Source: the human T2T-CHM13v2.0 reference genome, Homo sapiens. Taken from it: a DNA stretch of 64,000 nucleotides. Shown piece by piece: positions 55,030-59,349 of the stretch (position 1 is its first letter; the number at the start of each line of letters is the position of its first letter). The translations under genes were made by a program, and so were the position numbers. The stretch lies in NCBI RefSeq assembly GCF_009914755.1, contig NC_060942.1. The stretch is one strand, 5' to 3'. Under the pieces are notes generated by a model. The model was not told the DNA's origin. It saw nothing but the letters and a program-made list of their open reading frames with translations, and searched no databases.

Positions 55030-56919
55030 GGGGAGAAGTTTCATTCTCTTTCATTCTTCATTCATTCATCCATTCTTGCATATGGGTATCCAGTTTTCTT
55101 AGCACCATTTATCGAAGAGGCTGTCTTTCCCCAGTGTATGTTCTAGGAACCTTTGTCAAAAATGGGTTCACTGTAGATTTATGGATTTTTTTCCGTGTTC
55201 TCTATTCTGTTTCATTCATCTATGTGTCTGTTTTTATGTCAGTACCATGCTGTTTTGGTTACTATAGCTCTGCAGTATAATTGGAAGTCAGGTAAAGTGA
55301 TTCCTCCTGTTTTGTTCTTTTTGCTCAGGATAGGTTTGGCTATTCGGGATCTTTTGTGGTTCCATATAAATTTTAGGATTGTTTTTTCTATTTCTGTGAA
55401 GAATGTCATTGGTATTCTGATAGAGAGTGTATTGATTTTGTAGATTGCTTTGGGTAGTATGGACATTTTAAAAATATTTGTTCTTCCAATCAATGAACAT
55501 GGAATATCTTTTCATTTTTTGGTGTCCTCTTCAATTTATTTTATCAGTGTTTTATAGTTTTTTTTGTAGAGATCTTTCCTTTCTTTGGTTAACTTATTTC
55601 TTAGGTATTTAATTTTATTTGTGTCTATTGTAAATGGAATTACTTCTTTTATTTCTTTTTCAGATTGTTCACTCTTGGTGTCTAGACATGCTACTGATTG
55701 TTGTATGTTGATTTGGTATCCTGCAACTTACTGAATTTATTTATGAGTTCTAATAGTTTTCTTGGTGTAGTCTTTAGGTTTTCTCAAATATGAGATTATG
55801 TCATCTGCAAACAAGGATAACTTGACTTCTTCCTTTCCAGTGCAGATATCCTTTATTTCTTTCTTTCTCTTGTCTGATTGCTCTAGCTATGATTTCCAGT
55901 ACCATGTTGAATTAACAGTGGTGAAAGTGGGCATCCTTGTCATGTTACAGATCTTAGAGGAAAGGCTTTCGGTTTTTCCCCATTCAATATGATACTAGCT
56001 GTGGGTCTGTAAAGTATGGCTTTTATTAAGTTGAGGTATGTTCCTTCTATAACCAGTTTTTTGTGGATTTTTATCATAATGTGATGGTGGATTTTCTCAA
56101 TTGCTTTTTCAGCATCAGTTGAAATGATCATTTTTTTTGTCATTTATTCTGTTGATGTGATGTATCACATTGACTGAATTAGATATGTTGAACCATCCAT
56201 CCTTGGATCCCAGGGATAAATCCCACTTGTCATGATGAATGATCATTATAATGTATTTTTGAATTTAGTTTGCTAGTATTTTATTGTGGATTTTTGCACC
56301 AATATTCATCAGAGGAATTGGCCTATAGTTTTTTATTTTAATATGTCTTTGTCTGGCTTTGGTATCAGGTAATACTGGCCTCATAGAATGAGTTTGAAAG
56401 TATTCCCTCCTCCTCTGTTTTTAAGAATAGTTTGAGTAGGATTGGTGTCAATACTTCTTTAAAAGTTTGATAGAATTCAGCAGGGAAGCCACTGGGTCCC
56501 AAGCTTTTCTTAACTGGGAGAATTTTTATTATAGCTTCTATCTCGTTACTTGTTATTGGTATGTCCAAGTTTGGATTTCTTCATGTTTCAGTCTCGGTAG
56601 GTTATACATGTCTAGGAATTTATTTCCTCTACATTTTCCAACTTGTTGCTCATAGTAGCTACTAATGATCCTTCAAATTTCTGTGGTGTCAGTTGTAATG
56701 TCTCCTTTTTCATCTCTGATTTTATTTATTTAGGTCTTGTCTCCTTTTTTCACTAGTCTGGCTAAATGTTTGTCAACTGTCTTTTCAAACTCAAACATTT
56801 TGTTTTATTACTCTTTGATATTGTTTTATTTCATATTCATTTATTTCTCCTCTAATCTTTATTATTTCTTTAATTCTACTAATTTGGGATTTAGTTTGCT
56901 CTTGCTTTTCTAGTTCTTT

Positions 56920-57602
56920 CTTTTTTTTTTTTTTTTTTTGAGACAGGGTTTTCCTCTGTGGCCTAGGCTGCACTGTCATGATGTAATTACAGCCCACTGC
57001 AGCCTTGCGCTTCTGAGCTCAAGAAACCTTCCCATGGCAGCCTAGGCAGACACGCATTCTGGGTGCAAGCCAGGGACTCCAGGACACCCCGGGGCCCAGC
57101 ACAGGGGCTGCCCGGAAGGCACTGGCCTCCACAGGAAAACCCCAGCCCCCTCCTCGGCCTCACTGCTTTTATCCTGGGCTGCCTCAATGACCCCCTGCAA
57201 GCCTGGCTTCCTGTCCCTGTGCCCCTGGGGAGTTCTTGCCCCTTTGGGGTGCCTCCCATTGGGGAGACACGCACCCTGCGTGCAAGCCAGGACTCCACAA
57301 CACCCCCGGGCAGGCACAGGGGCTGCCAAGGAGGCACTGACCTCCACGGGACGACCCCAGCCTCCTCCTCGGCCTCACCGCTTTTTTTCCCCGGCTGCCT
57401 CAATGTCCCCTTGCAAGCCTGGCCTCCTGTCTCTGTGCCCCTGGGGACTTCTTGCCGCTTTGGGGTGCCCCCTGTGGGGGAGACACGCACCCTGGGTCCA
57501 AGCTAGGGCATTTTTTGTAGAGATGGGGTTTCGCCATGTTGCCCAGGCTGGTCTCAAACTCTTCGACTCAAGCAATCTACCTGCCTTAGCCTCCCAGAGT
57601 GA
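56920..57602 (-). mobile_element. Composite insertion: AluJ-like left arm + gamma-satellite-like monomers + AluJ-like right arm + poly(A)
   Basis: T19 at 56921-56939; right arm 56940-57043; repeat 57048-57509; left arm 57510-57601; 15-bp TSD CTTTTCTAGTTCTTT (56905-56919) / CTTCTCCAGTTCTTT (57603-57617). Confidence 0.88.
57048..57509. repeat. GC-rich gamma satellite (GSATII/GSAT-like), ~2.1 monomers
   Basis: AGACACGCA at 57048, 57265 and 57481 (periods 217, 216); minus strand GGCTTGCACCCAG..GCGTGTCTC..GGCACCCCAAAGCGGCAAGAAG..GAGGCAGCCGGGGAAAAAAAGCGG matches recalled gamma-satellite consensus. Confidence 0.82.
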
Positions 57603-59349
57603 CTTCTCCAGTTCTTTAAGATGCATCATTAGGTTATTTATTTGAATTTTTCTTTTTTTTCGATGTAGGTACTTAATGCTATAAATTTCCCTTTTAGTAC
57701 AGCTTTCACTGTATCCCATAAGTTTTGGTATGTTGTGTTTTCATCATCATTTGTTTCAAGAAAATTGTCAGTTTCCTTCTTAATATCTTCATTGATACAA
57801 TGGTCATTCAGAAGCATGTTGTTTAATTTTCATGTGTTTGTATAGGTTCCAAAATTTCTTATTGATTTCTAGTTTCATTCCATTGTGGTTGGAGAAGATG
57901 CTTGATATTATTTTAATTTTTTTAATGTTTTAAGTCTTGTTTTGTGACCGAACGTGTGGTCTATCCTTGAGAATGATTCATGTGCTGAGGAGACAAATTT
58001 GTATTCTGTAACCATTGGATTAAATGTTCTTTAAATATTTAATTAGGTCAATTTGATCTGTGTTGCAAATTAAGTCCAATGTTTCTTTGTTGCTTTTCTG
58101 TCTTAAAGATCTGTCCAATGCTGAAAGTGAGCTGTTGAAATCTCCAGCTACTATTATTGTATTGGGGCCTATCTCTCTCTTTAGCTCTAATAATATTTCC
58201 CTTATATATCTGGGTGCTCCAGTGTTGGGTGCATATATATTAACAATTGTTATATCCTCTTGCTGAATCAACCCCTTTATCATTATATAATGACCTTCTT
58301 TGTCTCTTCTTACAGCTTTTATCTTGAAATCTATTTTGTCTAAGAATAGCTATTCTTGCTCTTTTTTTGGTTTCAGTTGACATGAAATATCTATTTTCAT
58401 CCCTTTATTTCCAGTCTTTGTGTATTTTTACAGGTGAAATGTGTTTCTTACAGGTAACAGATCACTGGTTCTTGCTTTTTTATCCACTCAGCTACTCTGT
58501 GTCTTTTGATTGGAGAGTTTAGTCTTTTTACATTCAACGTTACTATTGATAAGTAAGGACTTACTCTTGCCATTTGGTTATTTGCCTTCTGATTTTTTTT
58601 TTTTTTTGGTGATTTTTTTCTCTTCTTTCTTACTTTCTGTCTTCATTTTAGTGAAAGTGATTTTCTCTGGCAGTATAATTTAATTTATTGCTTTTTAAAA
58701 TTGTATTTTGTGTGTATCCATTGTATGTTTCCCAATTTCAGGTTACCACAAGGTTTGTAAATACTATCGTATAATCCATTATTTTAAACCTGTGACTGCT
58801 TAACCCTAACTGCATAAACAAACAAATGAACAACGAAAAGAAAACTAACAAAAATTCTACACTTTAACTCCATCTTCCTGCTTTTTAATTTTTTGTTGTT
58901 ATTGTGTCTTATTGTACTGTCTATGTCTTGAAGTTGTAGTTATGTTTTTGATTGATTCATCATTTAAGTGAAGAGCAGTTTACACTCCACAATTGCAATG
59001 TTATACTATTCTGTGTTTTTCTGCGTGCTTACTATTACTAGTGAGTTTTGGACCTTCAGATAATTTCTTCTTGCTCATTAACATCATTTTGTTTCAGATT
59101 AAAGAACGTCCTTTAGCATTTCTTATACAACAAGCCTCACAACTCTACCCAGTGTTCCTACTGTGGATAAGCTGGTATCCAAGATACAAGACAAAGCCGT
59201 CTTTATTCTTTGCTCCCCTCTCCTCAAGTAGAAGGAAGGAGTCACTTTTGTTGCTGTGAGTTGTGCTGTCTGGGGTTGGGGGAGGGGTGGGTTAAGCATT
59301 TCCTTAGCAACCCCACTGGTGTCTTTCTAGGTCACATGCCACCTTAGTC

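What the first reader, a model, noticed from the sequence alone, without database searches (positions are those of the whole stretch)
56905..57617. Alu-gamma-satellite-Alu composite bracketed as one retroposition: candidate satellite-carrying SINE family
Seen, reading the minus strand: AluJ-like left arm (5'-truncated by ~33 nt, ending ..CTACAAAAAAT), ~2.1 copies of a 216/217-bp GC-rich monomer, the 3' ~100 nt of an Alu right arm, then A19. The whole is enclosed by one 15-bp TSD (13/15) at a TCTTT/AA L1-endonuclease-like site inside L1MA ORF2. The monomers replace ~60 nt of Alu linker and right-arm start. Established: gamma satellites (GSAT/GSATII/GSATX, ~216-220 bp) are pericentromeric tandem arrays, and known Alu-containing composites (SVA, LAVA, PVA/FVA) carry a VNTR rather than gamma satellite. 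Inference: a chimeric Alu RNA carrying satellite monomers between its arms was mobilised by L1 ORF2p, giving a route to disperse or seed gamma satellite. I do not know of a described family with this structure but cannot verify novelty.
Basis: partly seen in the sequence, partly recalled or inferred. Interest (0 to 1): 0.9.

Follow-up and report, generated by a model that had tools for sequence, protein, structure and literature searches.

The report
Gamma-satellite patch inside one old Alu
An old Alu element sitting in an L1 on human chromosome 18p has about 50 bases of its middle replaced by two gamma-satellite repeat units; it appears to be a one-off repair or recombination scar, not a new family of mobile elements.

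Summary
On the minus strand lie a 15-bp target-site duplication (13/15), an AluJ-like left arm lacking about 34 nt at its 5' end, 2.1 monomers of a 216/217-bp, 66% GC repeat, the last 104 nt of an Alu right arm, and A19. Eleven paralogous L1 copies show the 683-bp block sits at one ORF2 site. The monomers match pericentromeric gamma-satellite arrays, best on chr13 (81%).

The family interpretation is not supported. Both junctions are unique in T2T-CHM13 by mismatch-tolerant patterns, junction-spanning BLAST queries and gapped motif patterns. None of the other dispersed gamma-satellite pieces I found abuts an Alu arm.

The satellite lies at most 5.5% (non-CpG) from its array consensus. The host L1 is at 11.3% and the two Alu arms together at 15.9%. 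The satellite piece has no duplication or A-tail of its own, and about 52 Alu positions are missing.

Best reading (0.55): satellite DNA or cDNA was captured at a break inside an existing Alu. The main rival (0.25) is a tripartite chimera formed during L1 reverse transcription.

One result is unexplained. The right arm is far more decayed than the left, beyond all 41 control Alus. Primate orthologues would decide; they are not available here.

The parts
57603..57617 (-). 5' copy of the 15-bp target-site duplication (AAAGAACTGGAGAAG on the minus strand)
   Evidence: family D6 (13/15 with 56905-56919); the flanks overlap by 15 bp in 6 of 11 L1 paralogs.
57510..57602 (-). Alu left arm, AluJ-like, lacking about 34 nt at its 5' end and ending in the A-rich linker (..CTACAAAAAAT)
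   Evidence: Alu profile positions 40-133, E 1.2e-21; 89-93% identity to other genomic Alu left arms. It carries J-type bases at the two left-arm positions used.
57044..57509 (-). Gamma-satellite insert: monomer 1 (57507-57292), monomer 2 (57291-57075) and a partial third monomer (57074-57048). GC at 57508-57509 and GCCT at 57044-57047 are of ambiguous origin.
   Evidence: period 216, 2.1 copies, 85%. (best arrays chr13 81%, chrX 77%). (90.3% and 88.0% to the chr13 array consensus). (GC 66.5%, CpG observed/expected 0.28).
56940..57043 (-). 3' 104 nt of an Alu right arm, starting at AGGCTG and unusually decayed
   Evidence: profile positions 184-313, E 6.6e-15; mean identity 0.636 to 51 Alus, lower than any of 41 control right arms.
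56920..56939 (-). A19 tail followed by one G
   Evidence: T run on the + strand.
56905..56919 (-). 3' copy of the target-site duplication (AAAGAACTAGAAAAG)
57618..58100 (-). Host L1 ORF2, upstream flank
   Evidence: 83-87% identity to 39 other L1 copies. (51/489 non-CpG differences from the consensus of 11 paralogs).
56401..56904 (-). Host L1 ORF2, downstream flank
   Evidence: 60/489 non-CpG differences.

Best explanation
An AluJ element inserted by ordinary L1-mediated target-primed reverse transcription into an L1 ORF2. That event left the 15-bp duplication and the A-tail. Later, a double-strand break in or near the Alu's A-rich linker was repaired by end joining. The repair lost about 52 Alu positions and captured a 462-bp piece of gamma-satellite DNA, or cDNA of a satellite transcript, as filler. 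This corresponds to a 'class 2' templated insertion.

Shown here: the anatomy, the single insertion site, the satellite identity, the uniqueness of the junctions, and the lower divergence of the satellite. Inferred: the order of events and the repair route.

One sub-variant would also explain the odd right arm. In it, repair copied the satellite together with an adjoining old Alu right arm from a pericentromeric donor, and resolved through Alu or poly-A homology.
For: (1) The satellite piece has no duplication and no A-tail of its own. Its borders instead show a loss of about 52 Alu positions with 0-2 nt of possible microhomology. Passages of PMC5110952 give microdeletion, microhomology and absence of a duplication or poly(A) as the marks of class 2 insertions.

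(2) The two Alu pieces are co-oriented and nearly collinear, as expected for one interrupted Alu.

(3) Dating. The monomers differ from the chr13 array consensus at 20/363 non-CpG sites (5.5%) and keep 8/34 CpGs. This is an upper bound on time since capture. The Alu arms together differ at 26/164 (15.9%) and keep 1/16 CpGs. The host L1 differs at 111/978 (11.3%). Fisher tests: satellite vs Alu p=0.0002; satellite vs L1 p=0.0012.

(4) No second copy was found. The junction 30-mer and 32-mer are unique at up to 3 mismatches. In junction-spanning queries, none of the 43, 41, 7 or 14 matches other than the locus itself crosses a junction. The gapped motif patterns hit only this locus.

(5) Short gamma-satellite fragments of 83-100 bp without Alu arms exist at three other euchromatic sites, so satellite pieces reach chromosome arms without an Alu vehicle.

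(6) Satellite repeats are captured at Cas9-induced breaks in mouse cells (PMC6368560, passages).
Against: The right arm is much more decayed than the left. Non-CpG differences are 20/84 against 6/80, p=0.005. Without using any consensus, the left-minus-right identity difference is 0.15, against 0.014 +/- 0.031 (maximum 0.071) in 41 control Alus. All three right-arm sub-windows are outliers, z -3.2 to -5.2. One Alu decaying in place should not show this.

The left arm alone (7.5%) cannot be told apart from the satellite (5.5%), p=0.44. The 'satellite is younger' argument therefore leans on the anomalous right arm and on typical AluJ ages.

The A19 tail is uninterrupted, which is somewhat unusual for a very old Alu.

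My AluJ consensus rests on only 9 copies and my chr13 satellite consensus on only 7 monomers.

No donor locus was identified; the best single-monomer identity is 82%.
Confidence: 0.55

Rival explanations
1. This is a tripartite chimera made in a single L1 retroposition. ORF2p began on the A-tail of an RNA carrying an old Alu, jumped to a gamma-satellite transcript after about 104 nt, and jumped again to an Alu RNA. The product was 5'-truncated and is flanked by one duplication.
For: One duplication, one A-tail and an L1 endonuclease-type site bracket the block. The very different decay of the two Alu pieces fits two different templates. The left arm (7.5%), the satellite (at most 5.5%), the duplication (2 changes in 30 sites) and the intact A19 are all compatible with one event younger than the host L1 (11.3%). 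Double template jumps by a LINE reverse transcriptase are reported (PMC2104539, title and abstract seen in the listings). Hundreds of L1 chimeras, including Alu/L1, are catalogued (PMC13174262, passages).
Against: It needs two switches that happen to land back on an Alu only about 52 positions upstream of where the first Alu was left, in the same orientation. It also needs a first template that was already more decayed than any of 41 control Alus. No genomic source resembling the right arm was found; the best hit is 82% over 84 nt among 40 scored of 317 candidates. An AluJ-type left arm would have to be active at the time of the event. The L1 chimera catalogue does not contain the word 'satellite' in its main text; its supplements were not read. 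There is no sense-strand G>A excess that would suggest cDNA editing (15 G>A vs 9 C>T at non-CpG sites).
Confidence: 0.25
2. A master Alu carrying gamma-satellite monomers between its arms was transcribed and retroposed, and this locus is one daughter. The family would be small and old, or its source has since been lost.
For: The single bracket of duplication and A-tail is compatible with it. My searches have low power for copies that differ by about 30% pairwise. Only 40 candidates are scored per BLAST-type search, and only 100 of 217 motif hits were listed.
Against: No second locus shares either junction. Of the 5 other dispersed gamma-satellite places, 0 has Alu arms. A source that was itself one interrupted Alu would give equally decayed arms, which is not what is seen. 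This copy has a TTTT run inside monomer 2 on the sense strand, which could stop RNA polymerase III, although it may be a later mutation. This reading needs the capture event of the best explanation plus a retroposition plus loss or non-detection of the source.
Confidence: 0.1
3. The structure is an assembly artefact or a chance juxtaposition.
For: None was found. It is listed for completeness.
Against: The block sits precisely between two copies of a 15-bp duplication at one L1 site. The monomers are 15% apart and about 19% from any array, so they are not a recent mis-join of array reads.
Confidence: 0.02

Closest known systems
Class 2 templated sequence insertions and filler-DNA patches at repaired double-strand breaks (Onozawa and Aplan, PMC5110952; NUMT-type patches, PMC2567098, abstract only; satellite capture at Cas9 breaks, PMC6368560)
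   Same: A foreign segment of a few hundred bp has no duplication or poly(A) of its own, is accompanied by a small deletion of the recipient, and has little or no junction microhomology. Satellite sequence is a documented kind of captured DNA.
   Different: Here the recipient is the interior of an Alu and the donor is human gamma satellite. The event is an old, apparently fixed germ-line event. No donor locus is identifiable, and one flank (the right arm) is abnormally diverged.
L1-mediated chimeric retrocopies made by template switching or RNA ligation (U6/L1, Alu/L1, tripartite chimeras; PMC13174262, PMC2104539)
   Same: Several unrelated RNA-derived parts lie between one duplication, with one A-tail and an endonuclease-type target site.
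   Different: The known partners are small RNAs, mRNAs, Alu and L1. No satellite partner is mentioned in the main text of PMC13174262. Here both outer parts are Alu pieces in near-collinear register, which is not expected from independent jumps.
Composite non-autonomous retroposons SVA, LAVA, PVA and FVA (recalled; SVA is described in PMC13174262)
   Same: Alu-derived sequence is joined to a GC-rich tandem repeat and ends in poly(A) with L1-type duplications.
   Different: Those are families with many copies sharing their junctions, and they carry a VNTR of short units and a non-Alu 3' module. This is a single locus with 216-bp gamma-satellite monomers between the two arms of one Alu-like frame.
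Composite repeats of T2T-CHM13 (Hoyt et al., bioRxiv 10.1101/2021.07.12.451456, passages)
   Same: Transposable-element and satellite pieces occur together.
   Different: Those 19 composites are units repeated in tandem arrays, not a single unit bounded by a target-site duplication.

Membership tests
Gamma satellite (GSAT/GSATII/GSATX) | GC-rich monomer of about 220 bp repeated head to tail (PMC8125562, passages) | tested here: met
   Period 216/217, 2.1 copies; GC 66.5%.
Gamma satellite (GSAT/GSATII/GSATX) | Sequence homology to the pericentromeric arrays of chr8, X and others | tested here: met
   246 matches (150 listed), E down to 7e-113, in arrays on chr13, X, 21, 12, 8 and Y; 90.3% and 88.0% to the chr13 array consensus.
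Gamma satellite (GSAT/GSATII/GSATX) | Pericentromeric location in clusters of about 2-10 kb | tested here: not met
   The piece is 462 bp at chr18:11.46 Mb, inside an Alu inside an L1. It is a displaced fragment, not an array.
Gamma satellite (GSAT/GSATII/GSATX) | Assignment to one Dfam/Repbase subfamily | not testable with these tools
   No Dfam or RepeatMasker is available. The nearest arrays are chr13:18.14 Mb and chrX:57.57 Mb.
Alu (AluJ) | Homology to both Alu arms, in order and orientation, ending in an A-tail | tested here: met
   left E 1.2e-21, right E 6.6e-15. A19 seen.
Alu (AluJ) | Complete dimer with linker | tested here: not met
   About 34 nt are missing at the 5' end and about 52 profile positions (linker and start of the right arm) are replaced.
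Alu (AluJ) | J-type diagnostic bases | tested here: met
   All 3 positions used are J-type (GGGCAAC, TACAAAAAAT, ACCCTGTCTC). That these positions are diagnostic is recalled, not taken from a library.
L1-mediated retroposition (target-primed reverse transcription) | Target-site duplication, 3' A-tail and a T-rich/A cleavage site | tested here: met
   A 15-bp duplication was checked against 11 empty paralogous sites. A19 is present, and the site reads TTCTTT/AAG on the primed strand. The endonuclease consensus is taken from PMC5110952 and PMC13174262.
Composite SINE family (SVA/LAVA-like) | Several loci with the same internal junctions and different target-site duplications | tested here: not met
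   only this locus is hit; no match other than the locus itself crosses a junction. Power is low for copies about 30% apart.
Class 2 templated insertion (break-repair patch) | No duplication or poly(A) at the borders of the patch; microdeletion of the recipient | tested here: met
   about 52 Alu positions are lost, there is no repeat flanking the satellite, and no A-run at its 3' border.
Class 2 templated insertion (break-repair patch) | Recipient existed uninterrupted before the event (orthologous or ancestral state) | not testable with these tools
   No primate genomes are held. There is only indirect dating.
Template-switch chimeric retrocopy | All parts inserted at the same time | tested here: inconclusive
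   The left arm (7.5%) and the satellite (at most 5.5%) are compatible. The right arm (23.8%) is not, unless its template was already old.

The most novel reading that the evidence does not exclude
The block really is a daughter of a low-copy, ancient 'satellite-carrying Alu' whose master and siblings are lost, or too diverged for the searches possible here. L1 would then have dispersed gamma-satellite monomers through an Alu vehicle. A weaker version is that gamma-satellite RNA was reverse-transcribed by L1 ORF2p in a single tripartite germ-line event.
Probability: 0.07. Interest if true: 0.75.

Novelty: new member of a known kind. Interest (0 to 1): 0.3.

Why it matters
As a single scar it matters little for genome function. 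No gene or annotated element is nearby. It is a clean natural example of pericentromeric satellite sequence moved into a chromosome arm, and such pieces could in principle seed new arrays.

If the retroposition readings were right, it would show that satellite transcripts can enter the L1 pathway in the germ line.

The sharp difference in decay between the two Alu arms is a small puzzle. Primate orthologues could turn it into a dated, stepwise history of a complex repair or recombination event.

Tried and rejected
- **Rfam scan of 56500-58000.** It gave only three sub-threshold chance hits, and none is informative.
- **cDNA editing as the cause of the right-arm decay.** Sense-strand non-CpG G>A vs C>T is 15 vs 9 over all parts, with more G than C sites, so there is no clear asymmetry. 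Rejected.
- **The satellite as a separate L1-primed insertion at the Alu linker.** The A-run lies 5' of the satellite on the Alu sense strand and the T-run lies 3' of it on the other strand. Neither matches a tail at the 3' end of an insert, and there is no duplication. Rejected.
- **Candidate donors.**
  - The chr13 array has no Alu within the fetched flanks.
  - Arrays at chr12:34.089 Mb and chr14:13.47/13.55 Mb do abut truncated Alu right arms, but in the opposite relative orientation and with other junctions.
- **Dating the retroposition from the duplication.** Two changes in 30 sites is too few to separate the models.
- **Literature on gamma satellite.** Kim et al. 2009 (PMC2665773) is not held.
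- **Literature searches for a described Alu/gamma-satellite composite.** Searches returned nothing relevant, judged by title or abstract. Supplements of the papers cited were not read.
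Full report
**What is there**

I read the minus strand of the window. The 683-bp block 57602-56920 lies between two copies of a 15-bp repeat, 57617-57603 and 56919-56905, which agree at 13 of 15 positions (family D6). The block contains, in order:
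- an Alu left-arm piece, 57602-57510;
- a GC-rich tandem repeat;
- an Alu right-arm piece, 57043-56940;
- A19 followed by one G.

Tandem Repeats Finder reports the repeat at 57048-57507 with period 216, 2.1 copies and 85% matches. An Alu profile built from 13 Alus of the same window matches the left piece at profile positions 40-133 (E 1.2e-21). It matches the right piece at positions 184-313 (E 6.6e-15). About 34 nt are therefore missing at the Alu 5' end. About 52 profile positions, covering the linker and the start of the right arm, are replaced by the repeat. Two bases at one junction (GC) and four at the other (GCCT) cannot be assigned to either side.

**Is the bracket real?**

I fetched L1 copies that match the upstream flank (40 of 7836 candidates scored, 83-87% identity). 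I aligned both flanks of the block to 11 of them.
- In 6 of 11 the upstream flank ends and the downstream flank starts so that they overlap by exactly 15 bp.
- In 2 of 11 they overlap by 14 bp.
- In 3 of 11 the alignment ends are ragged.

The block therefore sits at one site of an L1 ORF2, with a genuine 15-bp target-site duplication. The primed strand reads TTCTTT/AAG, an L1-endonuclease-type site.

**What the repeat is**

The 462-bp repeat gives 246 matches in the window's own genome, T2T-CHM13, of which 150 are listed. Apart from the locus itself, all listed matches lie in arrays:
- chr13:18.14 Mb (81%);
- chrX:57.57-57.59 Mb (77%);
- chr21:12.4 Mb;
- chr12:38.1 and 34.09 Mb;
- chr8:43.8 and 46.4 Mb;
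- chrY.

Passages of a review (PMC8125562) describe gamma satellite as GC-rich, strongly diverged 220-bp monomers. They occur in pericentromeric clusters of 2-10 kb and were first found on chr8 and X. The insert has 66.5% GC. The satellite class is therefore supported. The subfamily could not be assigned because Dfam is not available.

**Is there a family?**

Several searches looked for a second copy of either junction.
- The 30-nt and 32-nt junction strings occur once each in the genome at up to 3 mismatches, with reversed-pattern controls at 0.
- Four BLAST-type queries spanning a junction returned 43, 41, 7 and 14 matches. None other than the locus itself crosses a junction. In the two short queries all candidates were scored (7 of 7, 14 of 14). 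In the two long ones only 40 of 317 and 40 of 1773 were scored.
- Two gapped patterns, each pairing a conserved Alu motif with a conserved satellite motif at the observed spacing +/-15, hit only this locus.

To find displaced satellite pieces in general, I scanned two conserved monomer motifs. The first gave 217 hits at up to 2 mismatches, of which only 100 were listed. The second gave 93 hits at up to 1 mismatch, all listed. Outside pericentromeres these scans showed:
- chr6:106.23 Mb (83 bp);
- chr5:168.32 Mb (90 bp);
- chr5:178.85 Mb (100 bp);
- a 1.35-kb array present twice in inverted copies at chr1:12.61 and 12.65 Mb.

None of these 5 places has an Alu arm abutting the satellite. The nearest Alu is at least 650 bp away.

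These tests would find a young or large family. They would probably miss a handful of copies that differ by about 30% from this one.

**Relative ages**

I built a CpG-aware consensus from the 7 distinct monomers of the chr13 array, which is the nearest relative.
- The two full monomers of the insert are 90.3% and 88.0% identical to it.
- They differ at 10/182 and 10/181 non-CpG sites (5.5%) and keep 8 of 34 consensus CpGs.
- The distance to an array ancestor includes any time before the capture, so this is an upper bound on the age of the capture.

The other parts were measured in the same way.
- Against a rough AluJ consensus (9 J-type copies among 41 full-length Alus from the window and fetched loci), the left arm differs at 6/80 non-CpG sites.
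- The right arm differs at 20/84, and together the arms keep 1 of 16 CpGs.
- The host L1 flanks differ from the consensus of their 11 paralogs at 51/489 and 60/489 sites, 11.3% overall.

| Comparison (Fisher test) | p |
|---|---|
| Satellite vs both Alu arms | 0.0002 |
| Satellite vs host L1 | 0.0012 |
| Satellite vs left arm alone | 0.44 |
| Left arm vs right arm | 0.005 |
| Right arm vs host L1 | 0.003 |

The satellite therefore looks younger than the host L1 and younger than the Alu taken as a whole. That conclusion depends on the right arm.

**The odd right arm**

I made a comparison that needs no consensus.
- The left arm's mean identity to 47 other Alu copies is 0.786. This is ordinary: controls average 0.804.
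- The right arm's mean identity to 51 copies is 0.636.
- The left-minus-right difference is 0.15. In 41 control Alus it is 0.014 +/- 0.031, with a maximum of 0.071.
- The lowest control right arm scores 0.704.

All three sub-windows of the right arm are outliers, with z = -5.2, -3.8 and -3.2. The two left-arm sub-windows give z = -2.0 and +0.75. The best genomic hit to the right arm is only 82% over 84 nt, against 93% for the left arm. The substitution spectrum shows no clear strand bias: non-CpG G>A 15 against C>T 9 over all parts. Editing of a cDNA therefore does not explain it. I have no satisfactory explanation, and every model needs an extra assumption here.

**Mechanism**

The satellite piece carries none of the marks of an independent L1-driven insertion.
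- It has no duplication around it and no A-tail at its 3' end in either orientation.
- It comes with a loss of recipient sequence.
- It has 0-2 nt of possible overlap at the junctions.

These are the marks given for class 2 templated insertions, meaning patches at repaired double-strand breaks (PMC5110952, passages). Satellite repeats are among the sequences captured at induced breaks in cultured mouse cells (PMC6368560, passages).

Three further points fit this reading: the near-collinear register of the two Alu pieces, the younger look of the satellite, and the absence of any sibling copy. The most economical history is an ordinary AluJ insertion followed by capture of a satellite fragment at a break in its linker region (confidence 0.55). 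One variant would also account for the right arm. In it, repair copied satellite plus an adjacent old Alu right arm from a pericentromeric donor and resolved through Alu or poly-A homology. No such donor junction exists in CHM13.

The main rival (0.25) is a tripartite chimera made during one retroposition by two template jumps. It fits the single bracket, the intact A19 and the unequal arms. It requires an unlikely return to an Alu template almost in register, and a first template that was already heavily decayed.

It also predicts equally decayed arms, which is not what is seen.

**Comparison with what is known, and novelty**

The locus works like a break-repair patch or, less likely, like an L1 chimeric retrocopy. 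Both are described kinds. It fails the defining test of a composite SINE family such as SVA or LAVA, because there are no further copies sharing the junctions.

I found no description of an Alu/gamma-satellite/Alu structure.
- Four full-text searches returned nothing relevant, judged from titles and abstracts.
- The main text of the L1 chimera catalogue PMC13174262 does not contain the word 'satellite'.
- The passages read of the T2T repeat paper define its composites as tandemly repeated units.
- Supplements were not read and might list this locus under another name.

I rate it a new member of a known kind and of modest interest. The one real curiosity is the asymmetric decay of the two arms.

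Noticed in passing
L033:1300-2192 (G000:C12:34088800-34089692): An 800-bp gamma-satellite block with about 205-bp units ends directly against the last ~50 nt of an Alu followed by a pure A30. The satellite is in the opposite relative orientation to the window's composite. No flanking direct repeat was evident that would mark a common insertion.
   Followed up: partly
L078:2445-2940 and L079:1350-4357 (G000:C14:13.47 Mb and 13.55 Mb): Two inverted copies of a gamma-satellite array each abut a 5'-truncated Alu right arm (profile positions 171-312). In the copy whose sequence I read (L078), an A-run of about 30 lies just inside the array edge. This shows that satellite/Alu-right-arm junctions exist in pericentromeres, though not the junction seen in the window.
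   Followed up: partly
L071:1998-2080 (chr6:106.23 Mb), L074:1971-2061 (chr5:168.32 Mb), L076:2459-2560 (chr5:178.85 Mb): Isolated gamma-satellite fragments of 83-100 bp lie in otherwise non-satellite euchromatic DNA, without adjacent Alu. They may be further captured patches. Their borders were not analysed.
   Followed up: partly
L072:1728-3082 and L073:1461-2815 (chr1:12.61 and 12.65 Mb): A 1.35-kb array of about 6.5 gamma-satellite monomers is present twice in inverted orientation on the chr1 short arm, far from the centromere. It is presumably carried by a segmental duplication.
   Followed up: no
window 56401-56904 versus 57618-58100: The downstream L1 flank aligns to the same paralogs at 71-79% identity but the upstream flank at 81-84%. 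The difference from the paralog consensus is much smaller (12.3% vs 10.4%), so this is probably a more variable stretch of ORF2 rather than local hypermutation.
   Followed up: partly
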